This document shows, piece after piece, positions 47,101-64,000 of a DNA stretch of 64,000 nt. Made by a program: the position numbers and the translations under genes. Position 1 is the first letter of the stretch; each line of letters begins with the position of its first letter. The notes beneath the pieces were generated by a model. That model did not search any database, had not been told where the DNA came from, and worked only from the letters and a program-made list of their open reading frames with translations. This DNA comes from an uncultured Acidimicrobiia bacterium (GTDB taxonomy: Bacteria > Actinomycetota > Acidimicrobiia > Spongiisociales > UBA11373), in contig CAZEHO010000003.1 of NCBI GenBank assembly GCA_964511945.1, forward strand, positions 62,431 through 126,430, given 5' to 3'.

Positions 47101-47250
47101 GATCGCGGTAGCAGCCGAGAGCAGGAACCTGACCAGCTCCAGGCGGGGCCGGATCCGGGTTTCCCGCCGAACCATGAAGACCGCGAGGAGCAACGCGGCG
47201 ATCGACAGCGGGATCAGGACGATGCTGATGATTCGGGCGACGGCACCCAT
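44188..47250 (-). CDS. Large membrane protein: N-terminal multi-TM region, signal-like segment, three internal roughly 155-aa repeats, Pro-rich C-terminal tail
   Basis: 1020 aa. Repeats of D(S/A)ATDQVR(N/D/E)V(I/V)GP(I/L)GP..(D/E)(L/I)D.LLDPS.NPD(L/I)Q(D/E)L(I/L).(R/Q/K)LP..LTDP.TG..IDPL..I.N.LE.ER... The tail runs ...GTTPPPPPPPPPSPPSG. Confidence 0.65.
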   Translation of the reverse strand: MGAVARIISIVLIPLSIAALLLAVFMVRRETRIRPRLELVRFLLSAATAIVLTLVHGAETPPVYLVLGLAAGLGIGVFQGRQLMIRVADGAAFASRSVLGIVGWGAGITLMQLAGALNRSGLIPLGTAGSFFGAALLGGLMLGRSNALGAAQARTTVYAVLALGLLLSLPGTATAETVDQAPVGATVHDLSDLFTDAGKVDGLTVELRGNGSYYGSSIRVRTTNSTAETIYIRVPIGLQLTPGDTSVQTMITAGGEVIAVRPETPEGEVQTDVIIAFCGEKNDGVPGSGEVFTPGGMADPQVVRTAENINERGEWDISAVNAMWGATDGIDLSNDPLAQQLLAGESGLPPSAAVRLSVAGLVGEALLLATALANAGMSVERILGAWQDGSWSGLRDLISESAPMQPSGSGTPQDFFDPDELLQSDAVREALNDLPHGDAIAVTQELVDRLNDRLLDSATDQVRNVIGPIGPDADLDRLLDPSANPDLQDLINRLPEHLTDPRTGERIDPLIHIHNVLEAERVEVAEEMAWTIFRGEGVVIKFQDALEQSRLQGGDPGPVDKFWEGLSDAERDYLDERFPPGGDGGPTSGGGRPDALDPERVVTADDPGAVLIETPQLRDYLDSLDHETRAAVEASLLDRMNGRVIEAATDRVRDIVGPLGPGDEIDVLLDPSRNPDLQELLDQLPHRLTDPNTGDQIDPLEQIRNTLEAERLQGAGDTGWTIFENEGLVVRLQEAMDQSTQQGGNPGPINDFWDGLDDETRDAFEQHLGPEAGPNTPLDPSDIDAERVVTSTDPRTTLAENPRVRDYLDSLDPDTRAAVEADILERMNTRVLDAATDQVREVVGPLQPGSDVDALLDPSSNPDIQELLDKLPPNLTDPRTGQPIDTLTHIRNTLETERLQGATSAVDHQVGLEQARGQLEAAVRDGRAADAQRILQSLSPEDANRLSESITPSAPSPPAEPLSPTVKPGTTPPPPPPPPPSPPSGQTMQGPPQQGSSPGPAPGIADPGEAASTDSGSGKE
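44500..46020 (-). repeat. Three diverged tandem intragenic repeats (about 465 nt each) inside the 44188-47250 gene
   Basis: Protein-level triplication visible in the translation; the nucleotide copies are diverged. Confidence 0.6.
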
Positions 47251-52900: not shown

Positions 52901-55900
52901 GTTGTCCAGCACCCCGTTCACGTTCAGGATCCCGCCCTCGTCGACGCTGTACCCATCGTCCACAGCCACCGGGTCGTCGTTGACCGGGTTGATCGTGATC
53001 GTGACCGTGGCCTCGTTCGATTCGGCCGCGCCGTCGGTCGCCTTGTAGGTGAACGAATCCGTCGTCGTCTCGGAACCGTCGTGGGTGTAAGTGAACGACC
53101 CGTCGGCGGCCAGGTTCAGGGTCCCGTGGGACGGCCCGCTCTGTGCCTGGGCGTCGACCACCTGCAGCGGATTCGGCCCGTCCGGGTCGATATCGTTGTC
53201 CAGCACCCCGTTCACGTTCAGGGTCCCGCCCTCAGTGACGGCGTGGGAATCGTCGACCACCGTCGGAGGATCGTTCACCGGAGTGATCGTCAGAGTGACC
53301 GTGGCGGGGTCGGAATCATCGGTTCCGTCGTTGGCGGTGTAGGTGAACGAATCCGTCGTGGTCTCGGAACCGTCGTGGGTGTAGCTGAACGTGCCGTTGG
53401 CATTGAGCGTGAACGCGGCATCGTGATCGGGTTCGTCGACGACCACCGCCGTCAACCGACCCCCTTCCACGTCGGTGTCGTTGGCGAGCACTCCGTCCGG
53501 CACGAGGTAGTCGAGCCCCCCGCCTTCAAAGAGCGTGGTGTCACCTTCCGACCCGGCGGCGGGATCGTCGACGGCAGCCGGCGGGTCGTTGACTGGAATG
53601 CCGAGGATGTCGTAGCAGCCAACCTCTGTGGCACCGTCGAATCCGGTGATCTTGACCGGGAAGTCCTCACCGCCGTCGTGGGTGTAGGAGAAAGTGCCGT
53701 CGGCATTCACATTGAATGCGGCGGCAAAGGCCGCGCCCTCGGCGTGCGTGGTCGGCGCACCGAAGTCGCCGTCGAAGCTGCCGCCTTCGGTGACCGGCGC
53801 TTGATCGCAGGTCTGGACTCCGTCGAGCGGGTTGCTGACCGTGCGCTCGATTGGCGTCGGATCCTGCTCGTCCAGCTCGATGTCCCACACGATGACGGGA
53901 TCGGGATCGATCACCTGATCGGGCGGAACCGAGAACACCAGATCGTTGATGTGGGCGGCGAACTCCTTGGGGATGGTGAGCACATACTCGAAGGGGTCGG
54001 AACCGGGTCCGCCGCCCACCGCCCACACCCGGATGACCATCTGCAGGAAGTGTCCGACCGATCCGTCGCCCGCGTTCGTGCGGATCGCCCGGTACCTGGT
54101 CCCGGTGGCCACCGTGCCCGCGCCGTTCTGGGTCACTATCTCTTCGGTCTCGGCGGTGACCGTCTGGGCAGGCGCAGTCATGGTGGCGCTGTCGAGGTCG
54201 TCCTCCACCGCCGCATCGCCGGGTGTCGAGTCGGGGTCCGCTTGATCGGAGGCCGCGACGGACGCCGTGTTTTCGATCTGTCCTTCACCACTGACCCGAG
54301 TCGTGATCTGGAGGCTCGCGGACGCACCCGGTGCAAGTGCACCGACCGTCCACACGCCGGTCGCGGCGTCGTAGGTGCCGCCCCCATCATCCGAGATGTA
54401 GTTCAACCCGTCGGGCAGTTGGTCGCTCACGGAGACTCCGGTGGCCTGGCCGGGCCCGCCGTTGCTCACCACGATCGTGAAGACGACTGCATCGAGGTAG
54501 CCGGGGTTCGCTTCGTCGACGCTCTTGGTAAGGGAAAGGTCGGCGGAAGTCCCGGCAGGGTCGTAGCCCTGACATTCACTGATAGTGCCGGCCCAGTTGC
54601 ACACCTGGAAGGGGTCCGAGTCGCCCCAGGAGCCGATCCCGTAGCGGTCGAGCCGTGCAGCCGAGAGCTCCCATGCGGCGCCGGTATCGACGTAGATGAG
54701 CACATCGATCCCGGGCGGATCCTCGTTCGGTTTGTAGTCACTGCGGCGCGGATAGAACGGCTCGTACACCATGGCGGCGCGTTGACCGCCGACGATCCCG
54801 ACGGCCCACTGGCCCCGAAACTCGAGCGGCACCCGCAGGAAGCTCCGGTTGATCCCACCGAGCCAGGCCGCCAGTCCGGCAGGCATCTGGGGTTGCGGGT
54901 TCGTTCCCGGGTTCGCGATCCACCCTGCAAACGCATCCACTGCAGCGATCAGATCCGCCGGGGCACCGTCGAGAATCACCGAAGTCTCGGGCTGCTCACA
55001 CGTCGCGAACACCGGACCGTCGATGCACGACTGGGTGCCCCACGACCCAATGATCAGATCGACACCAATCCCACCGTCGACCTGATCCGGCGGATCCCCC
55101 TCCTTGGTGCCGCGGGCTTTGACAATGTCTTCACCCTGCCCCCCAATCAGGGTCTCCCCACCATCCGTCGATCCAAAGATCCGATCGTTCTGGCCCCCAC
55201 CATCCATGTAGTCGCGCCCGGCGCCACCAAAGATGATGTCCTTGCCGGTCCCCCCGAAGATCTGATCGTTGCCCTTCCCGCCGTCCAGACCAACCGCCCC
55301 TCCAGCCATGACTGATTCGAATTGCTGCAGATTCACGGACGGGTCGAGATTCGGCGGGTAATCGTGACCCGGACCACCGTAGATCTTGTCCGGCCCGTTG
55401 CCGCCGAAGATCTGATCCCGACCCTTGTTCCCAGACAGGTTGTCGGGACCCGGACCCCCAAAGATGATGTCGTCGCCGGAGTTCCCCCAAATCCAGTCCG
55501 CTCCACCATGGGCCCCGTAGTCGGCGATCCCGATTCCGTACCACTGGCCATTCACGAACGCCTTGCCGCCACCGATCAGGATGTCGTTGCCGCCAAACCC
55601 GCAAATCATGTCATTGCCCAACCCGGCGTCAATGAAGTCGTCGCCCGACGTGCCGGCGATCACATCGTCGCCGTCCGTTCCGGGGAAGACCACGTCGTCC
55701 GGCCACTCCTCGGGGACCACGTGAGTGGCCTTTTGCCCGCCGCAGTAGGTCTCTGCCGAGGCCACACCGCCCACCATCACCAGCACCGACGCAATCACCG
55801 CCGACACCAGAGCGACCGAGGAGAGATGACGACAGCGGTTGCGCGACGGGGAGGGGTAGCTCGGCACCCTGGTTGTCTCGGACGTGGCCGGGAAGGGGAC

Positions 55901-56017
55901 GCGTTCCGATGTGAGACGGGAACGCCTCGATCTCAATGGCCGCTCTCTTATCCAGTGCAGCACGAAAGGCCTCATTCGCGCTCTCGCCAATCTCCCCCAT
56001 CTCCTGTAAGGGTGCAA
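49970..56017 (-). CDS. Giant (about 2000 aa) secreted multi-repeat adhesin-like protein. Domains in order: RTX-type Ca-binding GGxGxD repeats, a DUF11 domain, tandem cadherin-like/VCBS (T-95-type) repeats, C-terminal FG-GAP beta-propeller repeats.
   Basis: GNDMICGFGGNDILIGG and GGPGPDNLSGNKGRDQIFGGNGPDKIYGG (RTX nonapeptides). LSLTKSVD...VFTIVVSNGGPG (DUF11). Many VNDPP.AVDD...TYTHDGSETTTDSFTY..TDG repeats. FGAAVA..GD..VVGAP (FG-GAP) repeated about 6 times. Signal-like segment LSSVALVSAVIASVLVMVGGVASA. The exact start is uncertain (ATG 55975 or a nearby GTG). Confidence 0.8.
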   Translation of the reverse strand: MHPYRRWGRLARARMRPFVLHWIRERPLRSRRSRLTSERVPFPATSETTRVPSYPSPSRNRCRHLSSVALVSAVIASVLVMVGGVASAETYCGGQKATHVVPEEWPDDVVFPGTDGDDVIAGTSGDDFIDAGLGNDMICGFGGNDILIGGGKAFVNGQWYGIGIADYGAHGGADWIWGNSGDDIIFGGPGPDNLSGNKGRDQIFGGNGPDKIYGGPGHDYPPNLDPSVNLQQFESVMAGGAVGLDGGKGNDQIFGGTGKDIIFGGAGRDYMDGGGQNDRIFGSTDGGETLIGGQGEDIVKARGTKEGDPPDQVDGGIGVDLIIGSWGTQSCIDGPVFATCEQPETSVILDGAPADLIAAVDAFAGWIANPGTNPQPQMPAGLAAWLGGINRSFLRVPLEFRGQWAVGIVGGQRAAMVYEPFYPRRSDYKPNEDPPGIDVLIYVDTGAAWELSAARLDRYGIGSWGDSDPFQVCNWAGTISECQGYDPAGTSADLSLTKSVDEANPGYLDAVVFTIVVSNGGPGQATGVSVSDQLPDGLNYISDDGGGTYDAATGVWTVGALAPGASASLQITTRVSGEGQIENTASVAASDQADPDSTPGDAAVEDDLDSATMTAPAQTVTAETEEIVTQNGAGTVATGTRYRAIRTNAGDGSVGHFLQMVIRVWAVGGGPGSDPFEYVLTIPKEFAAHINDLVFSVPPDQVIDPDPVIVWDIELDEQDPTPIERTVSNPLDGVQTCDQAPVTEGGSFDGDFGAPTTHAEGAAFAAAFNVNADGTFSYTHDGGEDFPVKITGFDGATEVGCYDILGIPVNDPPAAVDDPAAGSEGDTTLFEGGGLDYLVPDGVLANDTDVEGGRLTAVVVDEPDHDAAFTLNANGTFSYTHDGSETTTDSFTYTANDGTDDSDPATVTLTITPVNDPPTVVDDSHAVTEGGTLNVNGVLDNDIDPDGPNPLQVVDAQAQSGPSHGTLNLAADGSFTYTHDGSETTTDSFTYKATDGAAESNEATVTITINPVNDDPVAVDDGYSVDEGGILNVNGVLDNDIDPDGPNPLQVVDAQAQSGPSHGTLNLAADGSFTYTHDGSETTTDSFTYKATDGAAESNEATVTITINPVNDDPVAVDDGYAVAKGGAIDDAAPGVLENDADAEDDALSVWSYTNPVHGNATVYGSGRVTYTHDGSDTTADSFTYRIWDGTALSDPATVTITICDPCAADDAYTVHREDTLFVPADGVLDNDSDPGSDPITVAGPAPVTPPAHGALTLNADGSFMYVHDGSAASADSFTYRATDGSGNSNLATVTLTIEPADVMWLGTDTFGTTQYPFTLPSSYTAVFVAHYGCDNDGFGGCVPREWDTWRFGSWQGRLDINGTRISEWRYFTDDSYYWDIEWDAVTKGSDGHWSWIEITPYVNPGANNALYYHNTGGPGDGIKIKVIPAVNVAPLANDDGYSVEQGETLVVNGVLDNDTDANGDALQVVDNDAGTAGVQPVGNVDHGDLTLNLDGTFTYVHDGGTATEDTFTYRATDGSLESNVATVTITINPPNDPPTAVNDGPLATVMEWPISRNAASGILSNDTDPDGNDLTVVDTDAGTAGVQPETSPAHGTLDLSADGSFTYTPEGDFIGSDTFTYRASDGFEDSNTATVTFDVGPKNWLEIWFDRANAAWESHGISVATDGATVVGGADFTGSGNHGRIQIYTPGAGGAWNEAIVNAPVPVGTPTWMKFGRSVAVSGNRIVVGAPGQDWSEGAAYVYTNSGGTWSKTATLQASDGTANDQFGAAVAIDGDRIIVGAPKDAPGGAVYVYDWNGSAWVETKLTASDAESDDRFGAAVATAGDFVVVGAAGEDASGDGAGAAYAYRWSGSAWNEAKLTAGDANDSFGTAVAVSGDRLVVGATGYGGNHGAAYVYDWGGAAWSQATMLQPATPSTSDDFGCAVGVVGRWVVVGASMDDGEATNGGAAFIFHHSTNDTWYETRLDDNDADADDFMGWSVAAGGDLIVIGKPGDDTTNWSGDGSGAVGSISIYK
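52750..53345. repeat. Perfect or near-perfect 294-bp tandem duplication inside the giant adhesin gene (two identical 98-aa cadherin-like repeat units)
   Basis: Nucleotide stretches 52797-52935 and 53091-53229 are identical (the shadow ORFs 52797..53048 and 53091..53342 share 46 identical N-terminal residues). The minus-strand protein repeats NVNGVLDNDIDPDGPNPLQVVDAQAQSGPSHGTLNLAADGSFTYTHDGSETTTDSFTYKATDGAAESNEATVTITINPVNDDPVAVDDGY exactly twice. Confidence 0.8.
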
Positions 56018-56112: not shown

Positions 56113-57087
56113 GTGACGGGACCACGAAGAATCCGCCGGTTGCTGGTGCTGCTGGCCTCAGCTGCGGCGCTGGTCGTCGCCGGGGTCGTCCCGATGGCAG
56201 CTGCCGACGAGGAGTCGGCCGAACGCCTCGCCGCATCGGACTACCTGCTCGCCATGGGTGCCGCCGGTGACCTGGTCGCCGATCTCCAGCGATCCCTCAC
56301 CGACTTCGGCATCGACGCCGGGCCGATCGACGGCATCTTCGGAGCGCTCACCGAGGCGGCAGTGCTCGAATTCCAATCCCGTGCGGAGATCGACGTCGAC
56401 GGCTACGTCGGCCCCAAGACCAAGGCCGCCATTCTTCGAGCTGTCACCGGCGACACGCCCGATCCCACACCGCCTCCGGTCGTCACGGGTCCCGCCCTCT
56501 CCCCCGGAGCCGGCGGCGACGTCGTCGTCACGCTGCAGGAGGAACTGACCCGCACGGGCTTCTACCGGGGTGAACTCGATGGTGACTTCGGACCGCTCAC
56601 GGCGTCGGCGGTGGTCGCGTTCCACAAGGTGTGGGGTCTCGACCGAACCTCCACCTGGAACAGCTCGGATTGGGACCGAATCGACGGCTGGTTCCCCGCT
56701 CCCCCCGGATACGGCTCGGCGGCGTTCCGTCTCGAGATCGATCTCACCCGCGAGGTGGTCTTCGTCGTTCGCAACGGTACGGTCGCAGCGGTGATGCCGG
56801 TGTCGTCCGGGAACGGCGAGCTCTACACCAGCCGCTCCGGTGCGGTGGTCCCGGCACGGACACCACAGGGCGACTTCACGATGTTCCGCTCCGTCGACGA
56901 GTGGGAACGCTCCTACCTCGGTGAGATGTACGAGCCGTGGTACTTCTACGGGGGATACGCCCTGCACGGGTCGACCTTCGTACCGGCGTATCCGGCGTCA
57001 CACGGATGTGTGCGGGTGATTGTCGCCGACATGGACTGGCTCGACGGGCGCCTGTGGATCGGGATGCCGGTCCATGTTTGGGGCTGA
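56113..57087 (+). CDS. L,D-transpeptidase (YkuD domain) with two peptidoglycan-binding (PG_binding_1) repeats
   Basis: GTG 56113 with RBS GAGGGG. Signal peptide. Two LQ..L...G...G..DG.FG..T..AV..FQ PGBD repeats. Catalytic HGSTFVPAYPASHGCVRV. Confidence 0.8.
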   Translation: MTGPRRIRRLLVLLASAAALVVAGVVPMAAADEESAERLAASDYLLAMGAAGDLVADLQRSLTDFGIDAGPIDGIFGALTEAAVLEFQSRAEIDVDGYVGPKTKAAILRAVTGDTPDPTPPPVVTGPALSPGAGGDVVVTLQEELTRTGFYRGELDGDFGPLTASAVVAFHKVWGLDRTSTWNSSDWDRIDGWFPAPPGYGSAAFRLEIDLTREVVFVVRNGTVAAVMPVSSGNGELYTSRSGAVVPARTPQGDFTMFRSVDEWERSYLGEMYEPWYFYGGYALHGSTFVPAYPASHGCVRVIVADMDWLDGRLWIGMPVHVWG

Positions 57088-57149
57088 TCGCTCCCGGTGC
57101 CGGCACTCCACCCGTGCGTTTGCAGGCCCCGCCCCGTACCATGCGCGCC

Positions 57150-57953
57150 ATGCCAATGTTCATGGATGTTCATCCCGGGCTCGGGGACGCCACCCCTGAG
57201 GACGTCGCCGAAGCTCACGCCAAGGATCTCGCCATGCAGGACGAGTACGGGGTCCGCTGGCTGAGCTACTGGTTCAACGACCCCGAGGGCAAGGCGTTCT
57301 GCCTCGCCGAGGCGCCATCCGCCGATGCCCTCAAGCAATGCCACAAGGCGGCGCACGGGTTGATGCCGAACGAGATCGTCGAGGTCCCGGCACCGACCCT
57401 GGCAATGTTCATGGGGACCTGGAACAGCAACTCGGAAGATCGTGCCATGCAGGGCGAGGACCCCGACAGCGGTCTCCGAACGATCATGTTCACCGACATC
57501 GAGGGTTCGACCGCCCTCAGCACCCGGGAGGGTGACGCGGCTGCGATGGAGGTCGTTCGCCTTCACGATGCGATCGTCCGGGGATGTCTGGAGGAACACA
57601 GCGGCCGGGAGATCAAACACACCGGCGACGGTGTGCTGGCATCGTTCACGTCGGTGGCCGGAGCAGTGGAGACCGCCGCCGAGATTCAGCGCAAGGCGGC
57701 AACGCACGAAAACCTCGGGATCAAGGTCGGTCTCAGCGCCGGCGAACCCGTTGCCGAGAGCGACGACCTCTACGGCGCCGCAGTGAACCTGGCGGCCAGG
57801 ATCTGTGCTCACGCCCAGGGCGGGCAGGCGCTGGCGGCCTCCACGGTCCGCGATCTATCGATAGGCAAGCACGCTGAGTTCGTGGAGCAGGGCACCATCG
57901 CCCTCAAGGGATTCCCGGAGCCGGTTCGGCTCTTCGAGATCGTTTGGCAGTGA
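57150..57953 (+). CDS. Fusion protein: N-terminal DUF4242 (SCO4226-like metal-binding) domain plus C-terminal class III adenylate/guanylate cyclase domain
   Basis: N-term MPMFMDVH...YGVRWLSYWFND..G.AFCLAEAPSADA (DUF4242 pattern). C-term FTDIEGSTAL, HTGDGVLASF, GLSAGEPV...YGAAVNLAARI (CHD cyclase motifs). Confidence 0.7.
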   Translation: MPMFMDVHPGLGDATPEDVAEAHAKDLAMQDEYGVRWLSYWFNDPEGKAFCLAEAPSADALKQCHKAAHGLMPNEIVEVPAPTLAMFMGTWNSNSEDRAMQGEDPDSGLRTIMFTDIEGSTALSTREGDAAAMEVVRLHDAIVRGCLEEHSGREIKHTGDGVLASFTSVAGAVETAAEIQRKAATHENLGIKVGLSAGEPVAESDDLYGAAVNLAARICAHAQGGQALAASTVRDLSIGKHAEFVEQGTIALKGFPEPVRLFEIVWQ

Positions 57954-58756
57954 GCACAGCCGCTCGACGCCGGCTGCTCGCCGGACTCGTTGCGATTGCC
58001 GGGGCGGCAGCCGTCATGGCGTTCCTGCTGGCAAGCCGTGACGAGATCGTCATCTACCGGATCACCGTCGTCGAGGGTTTGACGGTGCCAGCCACCCTCG
58101 ATCGCCTGGCGAATCAGACCGGGTTCACGGTCGACGCATATACGACGGCCCTTCTCGACGGATCGGTGACATCCTCCCTGCTGCCCGCCGACCCGGACGG
58201 CCTGACGTCCTGGGAGGGGCTGTTGTTCCCCGACACCTACGAGGTGACGGACCAGGAAGGACCGGCGGAGATCCTGCAGCGGCTCGCCGACACCGCATTG
58301 GCCCGGGTCGAATCGGTCGATTGGAGCTACGTGGAGGACCGCGGGCTCAGCGTGTATGACGGAATCGTGATCGCTTCGATGATCGAGCGGGAGGCCGGCG
58401 TCGATGCCGACCGGCCCCTGATCGCCAGTGTGATCTACAACCGGCTCGACATCGGCATGCGTCTCCAGATCGATGCCACCGTCGTCTACGCACTCGGTGG
58501 ATACCCGCCCGGGGGCCTGACCTTCGACGATCTCGAAATCGAATCGCCGTACAACACCTACGCGGTCGACGGGCTCCCGCCGACCCCGATTGCCGGAGTC
58601 CGATTGGCATCTATGCAGGCGGCGGCCGACCCGGCGGACACCGACTACTTCTTCTACGTCCTGGCCGATTCAACGGGCCGCCACGAGTTCACCACCACCT
58701 ACGAGGAGCACCTGGCTGCGATCGAACGAGCCCGGGCGGCGGGAGCGCTGCCGTAG
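57950..58756 (+). CDS. mltG: Endolytic murein transglycosylase MltG/YceG-like (short form)
   Basis: N-terminal TM. YNTYAVDGLPPTPIAGV and the FYVL..STG.HEFTTTYEEH C-terminal signature. GTG start overlaps the cyclase stop as GTGA. Confidence 0.7.
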   Translation: MSTAARRRLLAGLVAIAGAAAVMAFLLASRDEIVIYRITVVEGLTVPATLDRLANQTGFTVDAYTTALLDGSVTSSLLPADPDGLTSWEGLLFPDTYEVTDQEGPAEILQRLADTALARVESVDWSYVEDRGLSVYDGIVIASMIEREAGVDADRPLIASVIYNRLDIGMRLQIDATVVYALGGYPPGGLTFDDLEIESPYNTYAVDGLPPTPIAGVRLASMQAAADPADTDYFFYVLADSTGRHEFTTTYEEHLAAIERARAAGALP

Positions 58757-58759
58757 GAA

Positions 58760-59689
58760 TCAGTCCCTGAAGGTGGCCGGGCCGAGGCGGCTGCGATCGA
58801 CTTCCACCGAGATCACATCTCCCCGGAAGTAGTGGCCCGCCGGATCGAAGTTCTGCCGCTCCCCGCGCACCACGGCGGGATCGATGTCGGCGGCAACGAG
58901 CCGCTCCTCACCCGATAGCGGCTCCGCCAGCCAGGTGCCGTCGGGAGCGGCGATTGCCGAGCCGCCGTCGTACATGAGGTCTCCATCACCAAACGCTTCG
59001 TCACGGAGTTCGAACGTGTCGGGGATCGAGCTGCGCCGCAGCACAGAGCCCGCGGAGAGCACGTAGCAGCGGCCCTCAAGTGCGATGAACCGGGTGATGT
59101 CGCGGGTCAGGCCGGTCGACCCGGGCCAGCCGGCAACATGGAGATCAATCCCCTGGGCGTACAGGGCGTGGCGAACCGCCGGGACCCAGTTCTCCCAGCA
59201 GTTGAGGCCGCCCACCATCATGGCGCCGACCCGGTGGGCTCGCAGCCCGTGACCGTCACCGGTGCCCCACACCATGCGCTCGTCGTAGGTGGGCATGAGC
59301 TTGCGATGCGCACTGACGATGCCATCGGTCGGATCGATCGCGACGAAGGTCGCGTACACGGTGCCCCGCGATGGGGACCGCTCCGTGATCCCCACGTAGG
59401 TGAACACCCCTGTGTCGGTGACGGCCGCAGTGATCGACGCAAGTTCGGGCCCGTCGAGGCCGACAGCGGCATCCAGATACGCGGCGTACGCCACCTTCTG
59501 CACCGGCCGGTTCCAACGCGAGCCGTCGGTGTTGCCGATCCAGAACGGGTATCCGCTCAGGAAGGTCTCACCGAAAGCGAGGAGATCGACACCGTCGTCG
59601 GCGGCACGTCCGATCCAGTCGACGACGATGGCTGCGGTGGCCTCGGGGTTTCCCCAGGCGGGAGAGGTTTGGGCGGCGGCGATACGCAT
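58760..59689 (-). CDS. Nitrilase-superfamily carbon-nitrogen hydrolase (nitrilase / cyanide-hydratase branch)
   Basis: Catalytic triad context AFGETF (Glu), RKLMPT (Lys), GGLNCWEN (Cys). ATG 59689 chosen (MRIAAAQTSP...). Confidence 0.8.
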   Translation of the reverse strand: MRIAAAQTSPAWGNPEATAAIVVDWIGRAADDGVDLLAFGETFLSGYPFWIGNTDGSRWNRPVQKVAYAAYLDAAVGLDGPELASITAAVTDTGVFTYVGITERSPSRGTVYATFVAIDPTDGIVSAHRKLMPTYDERMVWGTGDGHGLRAHRVGAMMVGGLNCWENWVPAVRHALYAQGIDLHVAGWPGSTGLTRDITRFIALEGRCYVLSAGSVLRRSSIPDTFELRDEAFGDGDLMYDGGSAIAAPDGTWLAEPLSGEERLVAADIDPAVVRGERQNFDPAGHYFRGDVISVEVDRSRLGPATFRD

Positions 59690-59855
59690 CGGGTCAATGT
59701 AGTGGTGGGGCGACTGCTGCAGCCTCCGCAGATCGAATGCGCTGTGGATCATGGCAAGGCCCGGATTCGGCGACACCGTTCCGTTGCATCGTCTACTGTC
59801 ATGGCGGGCGAACGGGAGCGGGCGTGTCGGCGACGCCGACGATCGGGAGTGTCCC

Positions 59856-60152
59856 GTGCCACTGCCATTCATCCGGACCTACCCCATCACCCCGAGGTAT
59901 GCGTTCGAGACCTGCCTGGTAGCAGCGGCCGAGATCGGGTTCGAGCCCACCATGGTGGATCCGTCGGCCTTCCATCTGTGGTTGAAAGGGCGCAAGCAGG
60001 GTCAGAAGATCTCACTGTCGATTACCGACAACGGCCTCGGCGGGGTGACCATCCACATCACACCCGAGAAGGAGCGCCGGTTCGGCGGCGGCGGCCCCAC
60101 CCGCCGGTTCATTCGCAGCTTCGAGAAGGTCCTGCGGCGCGCTTCCGCGTAA
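59856..60152 (+). CDS. Hypothetical small basic protein (possible GTG start), adjacent to the AmmeMemoRadiSam genes
   Basis: GC3-rich 99-codon frame. GGGAG 5 nt upstream of GTG 59856. No recognisable domain. Confidence 0.3.
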   Translation: MPLPFIRTYPITPRYAFETCLVAAAEIGFEPTMVDPSAFHLWLKGRKQGQKISLSITDNGLGGVTIHITPEKERRFGGGGPTRRFIRSFEKVLRRASA

Positions 60153-60162
60153 CGTTGAGACC

Positions 60163-60957
60163 ATGGTCTCGATCCGGCCGCCGGCGGTCGCGGGGACCTT
60201 CTACCCCGCTGATCCCGAAGAACTCGAACAAGCGGTTCGCGAACTGATCGAGGCTGCTGCGCCCGCCAAACCGTCGGTGGTCCCGAGGATTCTCATAGTC
60301 CCTCATGCGGGGTATGTGTACTCCGGCCCCGTGGCGGCCGCCGCCTACCGGCTCCTGCCGGATCTGGGACGATCCCGGTTCGTCCTCCTCGGGCCGTCGC
60401 ACTTCATCGGCTTTGCCGGCCTGGCAACTCCCGGGGTCGGTTCCCTGGCGACCCCTCTGGGCGATGTCACAGTTGATGCCGATTTGACCCGCCTCGCCGA
60501 GGAGCACCGGCAGGTCAGGTCCGACCCCAGAGCACACGCACAGGAGCACAGCCTCGAGGTGCAACTCCCGTTCCTGCAAGTGGCTCCTTCAGACTCCGGT
60601 GTGATAGCGCTCGTGACCGGAGACGTGGACCCGCATCCGGCTGCGGAGGTCCTCGACGCACTGCTCGACGAGAACGACACGATCGGCATCATCTCCACGG
60701 ACCTGTCGCACTACCTCCCCGACCACGAAGCCCGAATCCGGGATCGGCGAACGACGGCTGCCATCACCGAATTGCGTCCCGAGGACCTCTCCCCCGGCGA
60801 CGCGTGCGGATACACCGCTCTCGCCGCAGCACTCCACGTAGCTCGGCGCCGGTCGTGGCGTTGCGAACTCCTGAGCCTGGGCAATTCGAGCGATACGATC
60901 GGGCCCAAGGACCGGGTGGTCGGATATGGAGCGTTCGTGCTGGGCCGACCCCGATAG
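60163..60957 (+). CDS. AmmeMemoRadiSam system protein B (MEMO1-family)
   Basis: N-terminal PAVAGTFYPADPEEL and ILIVPHAGYVYSGPVAAAAY; 264 aa; ATG 60163. Confidence 0.8.
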   Translation: MVSIRPPAVAGTFYPADPEELEQAVRELIEAAAPAKPSVVPRILIVPHAGYVYSGPVAAAAYRLLPDLGRSRFVLLGPSHFIGFAGLATPGVGSLATPLGDVTVDADLTRLAEEHRQVRSDPRAHAQEHSLEVQLPFLQVAPSDSGVIALVTGDVDPHPAAEVLDALLDENDTIGIISTDLSHYLPDHEARIRDRRTTAAITELRPEDLSPGDACGYTALAAALHVARRRSWRCELLSLGNSSDTIGPKDRVVGYGAFVLGRPR

Positions 60958-60960
60958 TGC

Positions 60961-62034
60961 TCAGCCACTGATTCGAACCGGAACCCTCTTCCCACCCCAG
61001 GCTCCCGGCTCAGGTTCGAACACTCCGGAGCACCGGGTACCGCATCCTTGACAGGCACCGGCACCGTCGAGGCCCCACGCACTGAGGTGATAGCGGCTGC
61101 GGACGATCAAGACGCGGCCACACTCGTGGCAATAGGTGCTCTCGGCAGCCGGGTCGTGCACGTTGCCGACGTACACGTGGCGCAGCCCGTTGTCGATTCC
61201 GATGGCTCGGGCCCTTCGCAGTGTTGCCGCCGGTGTCGGCGGAGAATCGGTCATCCTGAAGTCGGGATGGAACGCGCTGAAGTGCACGGGCACTTCCGGT
61301 CCGAGGTGTTCGACGATCCACGTGGTGAGCGCGTCCACCTCCCCGTCGGAGTCGTTGTATCCGGGAATGAGCAGCGTGGTCACTTCGAGCCAGGTCCTGC
61401 TGCCGGCCACGTACTCGAGCGTGTCCAGAACGACGCCGAGGCGCCCTCCGCAGGTGCGCCGGTAGAAGTCCTCGTTGAAGCTCTTGAGATCGATGTTGGC
61501 CGCATCGATGTGTCCGTAGAACTCCGCTCTCGGCTCCGGGGTGACGTACCCGGCGGTCACGGCGACGGTGGCAACGCCCTCCTCATGGCAGGCGGCGGCA
61601 ACATCGATGGCGTACTCATGGAAGACGACCGGATCGTTGTAGGTGAAGGCGACGCTGCGGCACTCGAGTTGGCGAGCGCGTCGGGCGATCGCCTGCGGTG
61701 TCGCCTGCTCGCCCAGTCGGTCGAACTCACGAGCCTTCGAGATCTCCCAGTTCTGACAGAACCGGCAGGCGAGGTTGCAGCCGGCTGTGCCGAACGACAG
61801 CACCGGTGTGCCGGGGAGGAAGTGGTTGAGCGGCTTCTTCTCGATGGGGTCGATGCAGAAGCCACTGGAACGGCCATACGTCGTGAGCACGATCTCATCG
61901 TCGTGACGGGCGCGAACGAAGCACAGCCCGCGCTGTCCGTCGTGCAGCTTGCAGAACCGGGGGCACAGGTCGCACTGGATCCGGCCGTCATCGAGATCGT
62001 GCCAGTAGCTGGTGGAGACAATCGAGGCACTCAT
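60961..62034 (-). CDS. AmmeMemoRadiSam system radical SAM enzyme
   Basis: CIDPIEKKPLNHFLPGTPVLSFGTAGCNLACRFCQNWEISK (CxxxCxxC radical SAM cluster with a family-specific flank). ATG 62034 overlaps the upstream radical SAM gene's stop as ATGA. Confidence 0.8.
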   Translation of the reverse strand: MSASIVSTSYWHDLDDGRIQCDLCPRFCKLHDGQRGLCFVRARHDDEIVLTTYGRSSGFCIDPIEKKPLNHFLPGTPVLSFGTAGCNLACRFCQNWEISKAREFDRLGEQATPQAIARRARQLECRSVAFTYNDPVVFHEYAIDVAAACHEEGVATVAVTAGYVTPEPRAEFYGHIDAANIDLKSFNEDFYRRTCGGRLGVVLDTLEYVAGSRTWLEVTTLLIPGYNDSDGEVDALTTWIVEHLGPEVPVHFSAFHPDFRMTDSPPTPAATLRRARAIGIDNGLRHVYVGNVHDPAAESTYCHECGRVLIVRSRYHLSAWGLDGAGACQGCGTRCSGVFEPEPGAWGGKRVPVRISG

Positions 62035-62996
62035 GCGACGGCTCCATCGATGCGCCACAGGCCGGCCCGGCGGGCGGCGTCGTGGGCTGCGGTGAGTTCA
62101 TCGCTGCGGGGCCTGCGGTTGATGTCGAGATGGCGGGGGCTGGTCGGAACCCGGTGAGCAGGCCGGTACTGACCCATGATGTTGATGTAGGTGTCCGCTG
62201 AGAGATCATGGAGCCACTCGAAGATGGCGGCGGACTCGTCGATCAGGCCCGGCATCACCAGGTGGCGGATCAGGACACCGCGGCGGGCGAGGCCGTCGGA
62301 CCCGAATCGCAGCGGGCCAACCTGGCGGTGCATCTCAGCAATCGCAGCCCTGGCGGCGTCGGGGTAATCGGCGGCCCGCAGCAACCGGCGCGCGGTATCC
62401 GCCTCCCACACCTTGAAGTCGGGCATGTAGATGTCGACCAGTCCGTCCATCAATTGCAGTGAACTCAGCGCGTCGTACGCCGAGGTGTTGTAGACGATCG
62501 GGATCTCGAGCCCGAGCGGCACCGCCAGGGCGATGGCCTCGACGAGCTCGGGGGCGACGTGTTCCGGGGTCACGAAGTTGATGTTGTGGCACCCGGCGCC
62601 CTGTAGCCCGAGCATCAGATCGGCGATTTGCTCTGCGGTCATCTCCCGTCCGGCGCCGCCGGCCGAGATGTCCCAGTTCTGACAGAACACACACTTGAGA
62701 TTGCAGTAGGAGAAGAAGATGGTGCCCGACCCGCGCCGGCCCGACAGGCATCGTTCCTCCCCGTGATGGGGGGCGGCCTGGGCGACGATCGCGTTCCGGC
62801 CGGTGTGGCAGACGCCGCGTTCGTCGGCCAGCCGATCGACGCTGCAGTCGCGGGGACAGGCGCGACAGTTACCGAGTTCCCGCCGGGCGGCTTCCACCTT
62901 GCCGGGCAGGAGCCCGCGACGGGCGGTGCGCAGGTAGGCGGGCTCGAAGCGGCCGATCAGGAATCGCTCGTCGAGTCCCGCCGCTCTCGGGTTCAT
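62031..62996 (-). CDS. PflX-like (COG1313) radical SAM protein
   Basis: SGTIFFSYCNLKCVFCQNWDIS radical SAM motif; 321 aa; paralogous to the downstream AmmeMemoRadiSam radical SAM gene. Confidence 0.75.
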   Translation of the reverse strand: MNPRAAGLDERFLIGRFEPAYLRTARRGLLPGKVEAARRELGNCRACPRDCSVDRLADERGVCHTGRNAIVAQAAPHHGEERCLSGRRGSGTIFFSYCNLKCVFCQNWDISAGGAGREMTAEQIADLMLGLQGAGCHNINFVTPEHVAPELVEAIALAVPLGLEIPIVYNTSAYDALSSLQLMDGLVDIYMPDFKVWEADTARRLLRAADYPDAARAAIAEMHRQVGPLRFGSDGLARRGVLIRHLVMPGLIDESAAIFEWLHDLSADTYINIMGQYRPAHRVPTSPRHLDINRRPRSDELTAAHDAARRAGLWRIDGAVA

Positions 62997-63035
62997 CTCA
63001 GATCAAGGTACTCCCGGCCGGCAGAGAAGGGTGGC

Positions 63036-63320
63036 TCAGACCAGATCGCCAATCAGCCATGCGAGGCACCCGAACCCCAGGGCAGCCGCAGCGATCATCA
63101 CCATCACCAGCAGCGCAATCATCCGCATCTCCGTTGGGCTCGCCGGGTCCGTTGAGCCGCGCAGATGGCGGTAAGACCGGCGGGCCGCCAGCGAAACCAC
63201 AGCGGCACCGATTCCTGTTCCGATTGCGCCCCACCGTCCCCCGGCGGCGAAACCGGCGATCGCCGCCACGGGTCCGGCGACCACAAGCGCCAGCAGGAAT
63301 CGCACGTGAGGATGCCGCAT
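63036..63320 (-). CDS. Small hypothetical membrane protein (3 TM)
   Basis: Hydrophobic segments LLALVVAGPVAAIAGFAAG, IGTGIGAAVVSLAA, MIALLVMVMIAAAALGFGCLAWLI. ATG 63320 chosen. Confidence 0.4.
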   Translation of the reverse strand: MRHPHVRFLLALVVAGPVAAIAGFAAGGRWGAIGTGIGAAVVSLAARRSYRHLRGSTDPASPTEMRMIALLVMVMIAAAALGFGCLAWLIGDLV

Positions 63321-63324
63321 CAGC

Positions 63325-64000
63325 TCAGGGGAAGATCTTGCCCGGGTTGAGAATCCCCGCCGGATCAAACGTCGAGCGGATCCTGCGCATCAGGTCCAAT
63401 TGCTCGGGCTCCATTGCCATCGGCAGATAACTCCGGCGTGTCACCCCCACCCCGTGCTCACCGGTGATCTGGCCGCCCAGGCCCAGCGCCAGAGCGAAGA
63501 TCTCCTCACTGATCGCCGGAGTCAGCGCCTTCCAGCGGTGATCGGCGATCTCGTCCTTCAGAACGTTGATGTGAATGTTCCCGTCGCCGGCATGACCGAA
63601 GCAGACGATCCGAACGTCGTGGCGGGCGGCCGTCTGCTTGATGCCTGCAAGCAGGGTCGGGATTTCGGCCCGGGGAACGACGACGTCCTCCATGTGGTTG
63701 ATCGGGCTCTCGTTGTTGAGCGCATCGATGATCTTGCGGCGGGCGTCCCACAGCCGGTCGCGGGTGGCCGAGTCGTCGGCGACCAGGACCTCACGGGCGC
63801 CGTGGGCGAGGCACAGCTCTCCGACGATCTCGAGATCTGCGTCGACGGCCTCCCGGCCGTTCCCGTCGAGCTGAATGAGCAAATGGGCTGCGGCGTCGTT
63901 GAAGGGAACCTCCGCGCCGGTGAGCCGATCCACAGCGGCGATGCTGTCGCGCTCCATGAACTCGATCGCCGTCGGGAGTATCCGCCTGGCGAGGATCGCC
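63325..64000 (-). CDS. FAD-linked oxidase (GlcD / D-lactate dehydrogenase-like), C-terminal part. The N-terminus lies beyond the window end.
   Basis: FAD-oxidase C-terminal domain pattern ...ITGEHGVGVTRRSYL...DLMRRIRSTFDPAGILNPGKIF. The frame is open to nt 64000. Confidence 0.7.
   Translation of the reverse strand, partial: AILARRILPTAIEFMERDSIAAVDRLTGAEVPFNDAAAHLLIQLDGNGREAVDADLEIVGELCLAHGAREVLVADDSATRDRLWDARRKIIDALNNESPINHMEDVVVPRAEIPTLLAGIKQTAARHDVRIVCFGHAGDGNIHINVLKDEIADHRWKALTPAISEEIFALALGLGGQITGEHGVGVTRRSYLPMAMEPEQLDLMRRIRSTFDPAGILNPGKIFP

What the first reader, a model, noticed from the sequence alone, without database searches (positions are those of the whole stretch)
59856..62996. 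Non-canonical AmmeMemoRadiSam locus: protein B convergent and almost abutting the radical SAM gene, an extra PflX-like radical SAM upstream, and no AMMECR1 partner
The three-gene AMMECR1 / MEMO1-like / radical-SAM system is normally a co-oriented operon of unknown function. Here the Memo-like protein B gene (plus strand) ends 3 nt from the stop of the cognate radical SAM gene (minus strand). The radical SAM gene is ATGA-coupled to a second, PflX-type radical SAM paralog. No AMMECR1 (LRGCIG motif) gene is in the window. An uncharacterised 99-codon basic ORF sits just upstream of B and could be a partner or substrate. The arrangement suggests a rearranged or variant system.
Basis: partly seen in the sequence, partly recalled or inferred. 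Interest (0 to 1): 0.6.

Follow-up and report, generated by a model that had tools for sequence, protein, structure and literature searches.

The report
Conserved AMMECR1-less Memo/radical-SAM gene block

Summary
Memo-like protein B (60163-60957, +) scores 245.6 bits on TIGR04336. The cognate radical SAM (rSAM) enzyme (60961-62034, -) scores 613.5 bits on TIGR04337, cut-off 220. Their stop codons are 3 nt apart. An ATGA overlap couples the radical SAM gene to a PflX-type paralog (62031-62996, -). No AMMECR1 lies in the 64 kb window or in the 3.6 kb beyond it.

Among 80 related genome loci, B shares the radical SAM gene's strand in only 6, is divergent in 46 and convergent in 6. The window's layout (PflX-like, then radical SAM, then convergent B, no AMMECR1) recurs in about 15-20 Acidimicrobiia MAG and metagenome loci. 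These group together in a radical SAM NJ tree and have unrelated flanks. The abutment is not essential, because three of these loci carry insertions between the two genes.

The 98-aa ORF is a real gene (dN/dS 0.13) with a KA1/BamC-like fold. It is an ORFan with one known relative and is absent from every other block, so it is not a conserved partner.

PflX-like genes usually occur without this system, but they also sit beside AMMECR1-less B/radical SAM pairs in Gemmatimonadota. B in the window's clade has lost two otherwise invariant residues. Genome-wide absence of AMMECR1 could not be tested, and the function remains unknown. Interest is modest.

The parts
59856..60152 (+). 98-aa basic ORFan (pI 10.35) with a predicted KA1/BamC-like alpha+beta fold. 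It is probably co-transcribed with B, since it ends 10 nt before the B start codon. It is not a conserved component of the block.
60163..60957 (+). AmmeMemoRadiSam system protein B (Memo-like, LigB/PCAD superfamily). The predicted metal-site residues H48, H80, E128/H129, D180, H183 and C215 are intact. Clade-specific substitutions occur at the otherwise invariant positions W168 (L here) and G222 (A here).
   Evidence: TIGR04336 245.6 bits and Pfam Memo 165.3 bits. Aligns to human MEMO1 (7m8h/3bcz) at E 1e-12. Residue conservation was checked in 64 B sequences.
60958..60960 (.). 3-nt spacer between the convergent stop codons of B and the radical SAM gene.
   Evidence: Sequence read directly. 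Stop-to-stop distances in related convergent loci run from -20 to +8 nt in 11 loci, with larger values elsewhere.
60961..62034 (-). AmmeMemoRadiSam system radical SAM enzyme. It has three invariant Cys groups: an N-terminal CX2CX3CX9C (C21, C24, C28, C38), the SAM-cluster CX3CX2C (C86, C90, C93), and a C-terminal CX2C...CX2C (C302, C305, C328, C331).
   Evidence: TIGR04337 613.5 bits against a cut-off of 220. The Cys residues are invariant in 90 aligned homologs. The nearest solved structure is PFL-activating enzyme 3c8f, E 7.5e-7.
62031..62034 (-). ATGA overlap: the stop of the PflX-like gene overlaps the start of the AmmeMemoRadiSam radical SAM gene (translational coupling).
   Evidence: Sequence read directly. 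The same 4-nt overlap occurs in L004, L006 and L165, and a 1-nt overlap in L166, L168 and L169.
62031..62996 (-). PflX-type radical SAM paralog. It has an N-terminal CX2CX3CX11C (C44, C47, C51, C63) and a CX3CX2C SAM-cluster motif (C98, C102, C105).
   Evidence: Pfam Radical_SAM 47.4 bits, with all NCBIfam hits below their cut-offs. JGI names its homologs 'putative pyruvate formate lyase activating enzyme'. Cys conservation was checked in 87 sequences. It is 27% identical to the neighbouring radical SAM enzyme over 114 residues that include the cluster motif and downstream core.
63036..63320 (-). 94-aa hypothetical protein with a hydrophobic, membrane-like sequence (my reading of the translation). 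It is co-oriented with and 39 nt upstream of the PflX-like gene. It is context specific to this genome, not part of the conserved block.
   Evidence: Gene call on L084. No family hit. No homolog in any related locus.
63325..64000 (-). 3' part of a GlcD-like FAD-linked oxidase (465 aa in full on L084). It is co-oriented and ends 4 nt before the 94-aa ORF. It is context specific to this genome.
   Evidence: Pfam FAD-oxidase_C 198 bits. Full gene seen on L084. It is not conserved upstream of PflX-like genes in other loci.

Best explanation
The locus is one copy of a lineage-conserved three-gene block. The block is a PflX-type radical SAM gene, then the AmmeMemoRadiSam radical SAM gene (often translationally coupled to it), then a convergent Memo-like protein B. 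It is the normal form of the system in one Acidimicrobiia clade, and no AMMECR1 is linked to it.

Shown here:
- family membership of B and of the cognate radical SAM enzyme;
- intact catalytic and cluster residues;
- conservation of the block as a unit in unrelated genomic flanks;
- local absence of AMMECR1.

Inferred mechanism (weakly supported):
- The radical SAM enzyme cleaves SAM to a 5'-deoxyadenosyl radical. This is inferred from its SAM cluster. The two further invariant 4-Cys sites may bind auxiliary Fe-S clusters or zinc.
- That radical acts on the same unknown substrate as B. B would use its His/His/Asp/His/Cys metal site. The Aravind group has proposed nucleotide-base or isoprenoid modification as the substrate class.
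- In this clade the AMMECR1 step is either dispensed with or encoded elsewhere in the genome.
- The PflX-like enzyme may add or replace a radical step.

The 3-nt tail-to-tail junction is inherited gene order in a compact high-GC genome. The transcripts probably overlap at their 3' ends, as is common in Actinobacteria, and the junction is not a required regulatory device. The 98-aa ORF is an unrelated lineage-specific gene that happens to share B's promoter.
For: Family membership:
- Scores are far above the curated cut-offs.

The block is clade-wide:
- In a neighbour-joining tree of 90 radical SAM homologs, the window groups with L004, L006, L009, L021, L036, L088, L092, L093, L094, L100, L101, L103, L106 and L108.
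- None of these has AMMECR1 in the DNA held for it.
- Every one in which B was found has it convergent.
- All but L036, L009 and L021 have the PflX-like gene directly upstream.
- NCBI MAGs GCA_043810615.1 (L165) and GCA_947258375.1 (L166), and JGI contigs L168 and L169, show the same block and no PF01871 hit within +/-10 kb.

The block is kept as a unit:
- Flanking genes share no homology across block loci from different lineages; only near-identical contigs share flanks.

AMMECR1 is normally next to B:
- AMMECR1 is adjacent to or fused with B in 47 of the 58 genome loci that have B within 10 kb.

The proteins look functional:
- B keeps all predicted metal-site residues. It has lost W168 and G222, which are invariant in 50 other B proteins, including the AMMECR1-linked Acidimicrobiia/Actinomycetes loci L028 and L074.
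- In the nearby locus L003, AMMECR1 is unusually divergent (125 bits, against 182-318 for the others) and B shows substitutions at the same two positions.
- All Cys ligand sets are invariant.
- GC3 of 0.75-0.85 indicates expressed, selected genes.

A second lineage shows the same association:
- PflX-like genes also lie within 3 kb of AMMECR1-less B/radical SAM pairs in two Gemmatimonadota loci, in different arrangements (L007, L012).
- These PflX-like genes sit on a different branch of the PflX-like tree.
- In 80 PflX-like loci, B and its radical SAM partner are the only conserved neighbours found in more than a handful of loci.
Against: - Genome-wide absence of AMMECR1 was not tested. 22 of 80 radical SAM loci have neither A nor B within 10 kb, so components of this system can be dispersed.
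- The PflX-like family mostly lives without this system. None of the roughly 55 relatives outside the window's PflX-like clade (mostly 55-65% identical) has it. At least 5 close relatives with 2.8 kb or more of downstream sequence, and also L167, lack it. The linkage could therefore be inherited synteny.
- The association rests on only two independent lineages.
- L006 keeps both radical SAM genes but only a frameshifted C-terminal remnant of B.
- No experiment defines the substrate or chemistry of any member of this system, so the mechanism is inference.
Confidence: 0.55

Rival explanations
1. This is a canonical three-component AmmeMemoRadiSam system whose AMMECR1 gene sits elsewhere in the genome. 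The PflX-like gene is a functionally unrelated neighbour kept by phylogenetic inertia.
For: Components are often dispersed: 22 of 80 radical SAM loci have no A or B within 10 kb. PflX-like relatives outside the window's clade never have AmmeMemoRadiSam neighbours, and at least 5 close relatives lack them too. The spacing between the PflX-like gene and the radical SAM gene is not fixed; tblastn match-to-match offsets range from a 4-nt overlap to +218 nt.
Against: Where AMMECR1 is present it is almost always adjacent to or fused with B (47 of 58 loci), whereas about 15-20 clade loci have B without A. B in this clade has lost two otherwise invariant residues. The three genes stay together while their flanks differ. 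The PflX-like association recurs in Gemmatimonadota in a different arrangement.
Confidence: 0.3
2. The radical SAM enzyme is a protein activase in the manner of PFL-activating enzyme, and B itself is its substrate. The target would be B's invariant C-terminal VVGYGA motif, which resembles the RVxGY glycyl-radical signature.
For: The closest characterised relatives of the radical SAM enzyme are glycyl-radical activases (TIGR02494 57.7 bits; PFL-AE 3c8f E 7.5e-7). V252, V253, G254, Y255 and G256 are invariant in 63-64 of 64 B proteins, and 34 of 64 fit a relaxed R[IVT]xGYx[GACV] pattern. From my recollection of the human sequence, MEMO1, which has no radical SAM partner, has Ser at the Gly position.
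Against: None of the 64 B proteins matches the strict PROSITE-type glycyl-radical pattern as I recall it. Activase model scores are far below their cut-offs. By my reading of the sequence, the DGxGxR substrate-loop motif of PFL-AE is not present upstream of the CX3CX2C motif. The VVGYG segment may be a buried core strand, judging from my recollection of the MEMO1 fold. This resemblance is a lead, not a test.
Confidence: 0.05
3. The 98-aa ORF is the substrate or a dedicated partner of B and the radical SAM enzyme.
For: It ends 10 nt upstream of B on the same strand. It is under purifying selection (dN/dS 0.13) and is basic (pI 10.35).
Against: It has only one homolog in 5.8 billion proteins. 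That homolog follows MltG, and its contig ends before any downstream gene could be seen. The ORF is absent from all other block loci. It is predicted to be a compact KA1/BamC-like fold rather than a leader-core peptide.
Confidence: 0.03
4. The locus is a decaying relic: AMMECR1 has been lost and the remaining genes are on the way to becoming pseudogenes.
For: In L006, B is reduced to a frameshifted C-terminal fragment. At least 5 loci in the window's PflX-like clade have lost both B and the radical SAM gene.
Against: In the window all three ORFs are full length against their models. All catalytic and ligand residues are intact. GC3 is typical of coding sequence. The block is kept in more than 15 diverged loci.
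Confidence: 0.04

Closest known systems
Canonical AmmeMemoRadiSam system (TIGR04335 protein A/AMMECR1, TIGR04336 protein B/Memo, TIGR04337 radical SAM enzyme)
   Same: B and the radical SAM enzyme are clear members, at 245.6 and 613.5 bits. They are adjacent, and all conserved metal and cluster residues are present.
   Different: No AMMECR1 lies within 59 kb on one side or 4.6 kb on the other. A PflX-type radical SAM gene is coupled upstream. B is convergent, whereas most relatives have a B-A operon or fusion divergent from the radical SAM gene. B lacks the otherwise invariant W168 and G222.
Glycyl-radical enzyme activases (PFL-AE, NrdG, YjjW; TIGR02493/02494/02495)
   Same: Both radical SAM proteins carry a CX3CX2C motif in a CNLxCxFCQNW-type context, and their best characterised relatives are activases.
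   Different: All scores are far below the family cut-offs. No glycyl-radical enzyme was found among the larger ORFs of the window that were scanned with Pfam. Both proteins have an extra N-terminal 4-Cys motif, and the AmmeMemoRadiSam enzyme also has a C-terminal CX2C...CX2C pair. As far as I recall, PFL-AE lacks these.
Human MEMO1 and LigB-type extradiol dioxygenases (PCAD-Memo superfamily; Burroughs et al. 2019, J Biol Chem 294:10211, cited from memory because the paper is not held)
   Same: B aligns to MEMO1 at E 1e-12 and shares the PHAGY and GPSH motifs. The DxxH and Cys motifs are also present by my comparison with the recalled human sequence.
   Different: B is a short bacterial form partnered with a radical SAM enzyme, and no substrate or activity is known for it. 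By my recollection of the human sequence, MEMO1 has Ser where the bacterial B proteins have the invariant Gly of VVGYG.
Convergent gene pairs with overlapping 3' ends in Actinobacteria ('cutoRNAs', Moody et al. 2013, cited from memory)
   Same: The genes are tail to tail with no room for a terminator, and none was detected.
   Different: No transcript data are available here. The abutment is dispensable in three loci of the same PflX-like clade, L166, L168 and L169.

Membership tests
AmmeMemoRadiSam system | Radical SAM enzyme scoring above the TIGR04337 cut-off | tested here: met
   613.5 bits against a cut-off of 220, with the full-length model matched.
AmmeMemoRadiSam system | Memo-like protein B scoring above the TIGR04336 cut-off | tested here: met
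   245.6 bits against a cut-off of 26; Pfam Memo 165.3 bits.
AmmeMemoRadiSam system | AMMECR1-like protein A (TIGR04335/PF01871) encoded next to, or fused with, its partners | tested here: not met
   A custom AMMECR1 HMM finds nothing at E <= 10 in the six-frame ORFs of the window, or in L084, which extends 3.6 kb beyond it. Pfam gene tables for L001 and L084 show no PF01871 hit.
AmmeMemoRadiSam system | Protein A encoded anywhere in the same genome | not testable with these tools
   Only the 64 kb window and short Logan contigs of the source organism could be retrieved. The 172,968-bp NCBI contig is not on record for look-up.
AmmeMemoRadiSam system | Conserved catalytic and ligand residues in B (His/His/Glu-His/Asp/His/Cys) and in the radical SAM enzyme (CX3CX2C plus N- and C-terminal Cys sets) | tested here: met
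   All are present and invariant across 64 B and 90 radical SAM homologs.
PflX-type radical SAM (COG1313 / KEGG K04070, labels from memory) | Radical SAM core with a CX3CX2C motif, and homologs annotated as putative PFL-activating enzyme | tested here: inconclusive
   Pfam Radical_SAM 47.4 bits. JGI names its homologs 'putative pyruvate formate lyase activating enzyme'. No COG or KEGG model is available here, and no NCBIfam model reaches its cut-off.
Glycyl-radical enzyme activase (PFL-AE / NrdG) | Score above the curated cut-off, and a glycyl-radical enzyme partner | tested here: not met
   For the AmmeMemoRadiSam enzyme, TIGR02494 scores 57.7 bits against a cut-off of 174. For the PflX-like protein, TIGR02495 scores 32.1 bits against a cut-off of 131. 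No glycyl-radical enzyme was found among the large ORFs scanned.
Radical-SAM peptide-modification (RiPP-like) locus, with the 98-aa ORF as precursor | A small precursor gene conserved next to the modifying enzyme | tested here: not met
   The ORF is absent from all other block loci. It has one homolog worldwide, in a different context. It is predicted to be a globular KA1-like fold.

The most novel reading that the evidence does not exclude
In one Acidimicrobiia clade, and independently in some Gemmatimonadota, the Memo/radical-SAM pathway works without AMMECR1, and a PflX-type radical SAM enzyme has been recruited as the third component. The loss of the otherwise invariant W168 and G222 in B would mark the lost AMMECR1 interface or an altered substrate. 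If so, comparing the two variants would show which chemical step AMMECR1 contributes, which bears on the unknown biochemical roles of human AMMECR1 and MEMO1.
Probability: 0.2. Interest if true: 0.55.

Novelty: new variant of a known kind. Interest (0 to 1): 0.3.

Why it matters
MEMO1 and AMMECR1 are conserved, disease-linked proteins whose biochemical function is unknown. The prokaryotic three-gene system is the main contextual clue to that function. A natural, conserved variant keeps B and the radical SAM enzyme intact, lacks a linked AMMECR1, and carries a second radical SAM enzyme. Such a variant would be a useful comparison for heterologous reconstitution: does B plus the radical SAM enzyme work alone, and what does the extra enzyme add?

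As it stands the finding is a gene-order and gene-content variant of an uncharacterised system. It rests on comparative genomics alone, and it is not a surprising arrangement once the relatives are examined.

Tried and rejected
- Extending the source contig. Exact-protein look-ups returned only Logan contigs of 8.7, 1.8 and 5.8 kb. The 172,968-bp NCBI contig is not retrievable, so only 3.6 kb beyond the window could be seen.
- Conserved upstream context. The GlcD-like gene, the 94-aa ORF and the HGD-D genes found upstream in this organism are not conserved in any related locus, so they were rejected as part of the system.
- Other conserved partners. Clustering the neighbours of 16 block-type loci and of 80 PflX-like loci gave no conserved family beyond the three genes.
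- Small ORF as partner. Rejected on its distribution and predicted fold.
- RNA elements and signals. There were no Rfam hits at gathering thresholds across the whole window. There were no sigma-70-like promoters or intrinsic terminators in 58600-64000. That scan is not tuned for Actinobacteria, so the negative is weak.
- Literature. 'AmmeMemoRadiSam' appears only in passing in 6 papers. The 'PflX' search returned only unrelated hits, such as pefloxacin, among the 15 papers listed. Burroughs et al. 2019 is not held. Only Balaji and Aravind 2007 (PMC2034487) and Kaur et al. 2020 (PMC7159879) gave usable statements.
- Structure searches. The afdb50 fold library was unavailable. No PDB sequence relative exists for the PflX-like protein.
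- Not attempted. I ran no further search on AMMECR1. Without genome context it could not settle whether AMMECR1 is absent genome-wide.


Full report
**1. What is in the sequence**

The window has about 66% GC throughout. The genes I annotated are ordinary chromosomal ones: Lon, SdhA-like, prolyl oligopeptidase, LarA, MltG. The best relatives of the locus are Acidimicrobiia MAGs.

The region of the finding reads as follows.

| Coordinates | Strand | Gene | Evidence |
|---|---|---|---|
| ~58760-59752 | - | CN-hydrolase (nitrilase-like); start taken from the 330-aa Logan gene call | |
| 59856-60152 | + | 98-aa ORF | |
| 60163-60957 | + | Memo-like protein B: TIGR04336 245.6 bits (cut-off 26); Pfam Memo 165.3 bits | |
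| 60961-62034 | - | AmmeMemoRadiSam radical SAM enzyme: TIGR04337 613.5 bits (cut-off 220), full-length match | |
| 62031-62996 | - | Second radical SAM protein: Pfam Radical_SAM only, no NCBIfam model above cut-off | |

- The 98-aa ORF ends 10 nt before the B start codon.
- The stop codons of B and the radical SAM gene are 3 nt apart.
- The two radical SAM genes overlap as ATGA.
- JGI names homologs of the second radical SAM protein 'putative pyruvate formate lyase activating enzyme'. I recall that label from KEGG and COG and could not test it with a model.

**2. AMMECR1 is absent locally**

- I built an HMM from 43 AMMECR1 genes (LRGC[IMV]G motif) found beside B in related loci.
- Against all stop-to-stop ORFs of 50 aa or more, the HMM recovers 47 AMMECR1 genes in the related loci. 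One of these is a divergent copy at 125 bits.
- It finds nothing in the window, even at E <= 10.
- Logan contig L084, from the same organism, extends 3.6 kb past the window end. It carries the rest of a GlcD-like FAD oxidase, two HGD-D genes and a partial gene, and no AMMECR1.

**3. The layout is not anomalous among relatives**

A scan of species-representative genomes returned 80 loci whose radical SAM enzyme is 61-71% identical to the window's. I mapped B, AMMECR1 and the PflX-like gene in each.

| Position of B relative to the radical SAM gene | Loci (of 80) |
|---|---|
| Opposite strand, upstream (divergent), usually as a B-A operon or B-A fusion | 46 |
| Convergent | 6 |
| Co-oriented | 6 |
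| Not within 10 kb | 22 |

The premise of a 'normally co-oriented operon' does not describe this part of the family.

**4. The window's layout is clade-wide**

- In a neighbour-joining tree of 90 radical SAM homologs, the window groups with L004 (Acidimicrobiia UBA4744), L006, L009, L021 and L036. It also groups with metagenome loci L088, L092, L093, L094, L100, L101, L103, L106 and L108.
- None of these has AMMECR1 in the DNA held for it.
- Every one in which B was found has it convergent.
- All but L036, L009 and L021 have the PflX-like gene directly upstream.
- A scan of metagenome contigs with the PflX-like protein gave 13 loci with the AmmeMemoRadiSam radical SAM gene immediately downstream. 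B was convergent wherever the contig was long enough.
- Pfam-annotated gene tables show the same order, Radical_SAM, Radical_SAM, then Memo on the opposite strand. This holds for two NCBI MAGs (L165, GCA_043810615.1; L166, GCA_947258375.1) and two JGI contigs (L168, L169). None has a PF01871 hit within +/-10 kb.
- Flanking genes differ among lineages, and clustering finds only the three block families in common.

Stop-to-stop distances between the radical SAM gene and B:

| Distance (nt) | Loci |
|---|---|
| -20 | L004 |
| -4 | L094, L036 |
| +3 | window, L165 |
| +6 | L088, L092, L100, L101, L103 |
| +8 | L106 |
| 807 | L166 (PIN-domain gene inserted) |
| 1718, 1719 | L168, L169 (two small ORFs inserted) |

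The abutment is therefore inherited rather than required.

**5. Is the PflX-like gene part of the system?**

For:
- The three genes travel together through different genomic contexts.
- Overlaps of 4 or 1 nt between the two radical SAM genes occur in the window, L004, L006, L165, L166, L168 and L169.
- In 80 PflX-like loci, the only repeatedly conserved neighbours are the AmmeMemoRadiSam radical SAM gene and B.
- Two Gemmatimonadota loci also have a PflX-like gene within 3 kb of an AMMECR1-less radical SAM/B pair, in different arrangements (L007, L012). Those PflX-like genes lie on a different branch of the PflX-like tree.
- None of the 47 AMMECR1-containing loci has a PflX-like gene within 10 kb.

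Against:
- The PflX-like family is large, with at least 8000 homologs at E <= 1e-10.
- It usually lacks this neighbour. None of the roughly 55 relatives outside the window's PflX-like clade has it. At least 5 close relatives with 2.8 kb or more of downstream sequence lack it, and so does L167.
- Only two independent lineages support the association.

**6. State of the proteins**

- B keeps H48, H80, E128/H129, D180, H183 and C215. These are invariant in all 64 B sequences, and the first two align with the PHAGY and GPSH motifs of human MEMO1.
- The window's clade, together with the nearby locus L003, has replaced W168 (with I, L, V or A) and G222 (with A or I). Both residues are invariant in 50 other B proteins. 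These include the AMMECR1-linked Acidimicrobiia/Actinomycetes loci L028 and L074, and the Gemmatimonadota loci.
- L003 still has an adjacent AMMECR1, but it is the most divergent of the 47. This pattern fits progressive loss of AMMECR1 coupling, but it is only a correlation.
- The AmmeMemoRadiSam radical SAM enzyme has three fully invariant Cys sets: C21/24/28/38, C86/90/93 and C302/305/328/331.
- Against 146 positions that are at least 95% invariant elsewhere, it has only one clade-specific change.
- The PflX-like protein has C44/47/51/63 and C98/102/105. It shares 27% identity with its neighbour over 114 residues that include the cluster motif and downstream core.
- The nearest solved structure to the AmmeMemoRadiSam enzyme is PFL-activating enzyme (E 7.5e-7).
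- All glycyl-radical activase models score far below their cut-offs for both radical SAM proteins. No glycyl-radical enzyme was found among the large ORFs of the window.

**7. The 98-aa ORF**

- It is a real gene. GC3 is 0.85. It was called on two Logan contigs. dN/dS is 0.13 against its only homolog.
- That homolog (P0002, 77% identity) is the sole other hit among 5.8 billion proteins. It follows MltG directly on a 1.2-kb contig.
- No other block locus has a relative of the ORF.
- AlphaFold2 gives a confident beta-alpha-beta4-alpha domain (pLDDT 83).
- It is a lineage-specific basic KA1-like protein, not a conserved partner or a peptide substrate.

**8. Mechanism**

Nothing experimental is known for any bacterial member of this system.

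- Balaji and Aravind (PMC2034487) noted the AMMECR1, radical SAM and dioxygenase-like neighbourhood and proposed an RNA-base modification that uses the AMMECR1 cysteine.
- Burroughs et al. 2019 linked Memo to nucleotide-base and isoprenoid modification. I cite this from memory because the paper is not held.
- Kaur et al. (PMC7159879) noted related radical SAM domains in peptide-processing systems.

My best reading, at about 0.55 confidence for the genomic part and much lower for the chemistry:
- The locus is a conserved module without linked AMMECR1.
- The radical SAM enzyme(s) and the metal-dependent B act on one unknown substrate.
- The PflX-like enzyme is a possible added or replacing step.

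The main rival, at about 0.3, is a dispersed canonical system with an unrelated PflX-like neighbour. A low-probability lead is that the invariant C-terminal VVGYGA of B resembles a glycyl-radical motif. It matches the strict pattern in 0 of 64 sequences and a relaxed pattern in 34 of 64.

**9. Verdict**

This is a lineage-conserved variant of a known but uncharacterised system. It is neither a unique rearrangement nor categorically new. Interest is about 0.3. The decisive missing test is an AMMECR1 HMM search of complete genomes of the clade.

Noticed in passing
L006:11090-11279 (-): In this Acidimicrobiia MAG the PflX-like and AmmeMemoRadiSam radical SAM genes are intact and overlap by 4 nt. 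Memo-like B survives only as a frameshifted C-terminal remnant (residues ~193-256), followed by an unrelated 403-aa gene.
   Followed up: partly
L166:12187-12516 (-); L168:12141-13458; L169:4656-5973: Unrelated genes are inserted between the convergent radical SAM gene and B: a PIN-domain gene in L166, and 152-aa and 39-aa ORFs in L168 and L169. The tail-to-tail abutment is therefore dispensable.
   Followed up: yes
window 60163-60957, residues 168 and 222 of B: W168 and G222 are invariant in 50 B proteins from other lineages. They are replaced in the window's clade and in the nearby locus L003, whose adjacent AMMECR1 is unusually divergent (125 bits). This may mark a lost partner interface or a changed pocket. 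Their structural location was not determined.
   Followed up: partly
window 60916-60933 (B residues 252-257, VVGYGA): This C-terminal motif is invariant in 63-64 of 64 B proteins. It resembles the RVxGY glycyl-radical signature, which is notable next to a PFL-activase-like radical SAM enzyme. It fits only a relaxed pattern (34 of 64) and never the strict one.
   Followed up: partly
window 49970-56017 (-): A 2015-aa protein with a hydrophobic stretch near its N-terminus (probably secreted). It has RTX calcium-binding repeats, DUF11, seven Big_9/Cadherin_4/Cadherin_5 repeats (some near-identical in tandem) and six FG-GAP repeats.
   Followed up: partly
window 44188-47250 (-), 5049-6788 (-), 35181-36896 (-), 3863-4777 (+): Large ORFs of 1020, 579, 571 and 304 aa with coding-like GC3 (0.76-0.84) have no Pfam hit at the E-value cut-offs used (1e-3 or 1e-4).
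   Followed up: no
window 56937-57953 (+): A SCO4226-like nickel-binding domain is fused to an adenylate/guanylate cyclase catalytic domain. The Logan gene call is 270 aa. This could be a metal-responsive cyclase.
   Followed up: no
window 63036-64000 (-), continuing on L084:1-4266: Upstream of the PflX-like gene and co-oriented with it are a GlcD-like FAD-linked oxidase and a 94-aa hydrophobic ORF, at 4-nt and 39-nt spacings. This could be a four-gene transcript specific to this genome. Further on, two HGD-D (2-hydroxyacyl-CoA dehydratase-like) genes lie on the opposite strand, followed by a partial gene. In L166, L168 and L169 a GMC-type FAD oxidoreductase occupies the position upstream of the PflX-like gene.
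   Followed up: partly
L083:2-1195 compared with window 57944-60152: In the only relative that has the 98-aa ORF, it directly follows MltG. In the window a nitrilase-like gene on the opposite strand lies between them, so there has been a recent insertion or deletion at this spot.
   Followed up: partly
window 2234-3205 (+): A 323-aa regulator made of two tandem AsnC/Lrp units (two HTH_AsnC domains and two ligand-binding domains), which is a duplicated architecture.
   Followed up: no
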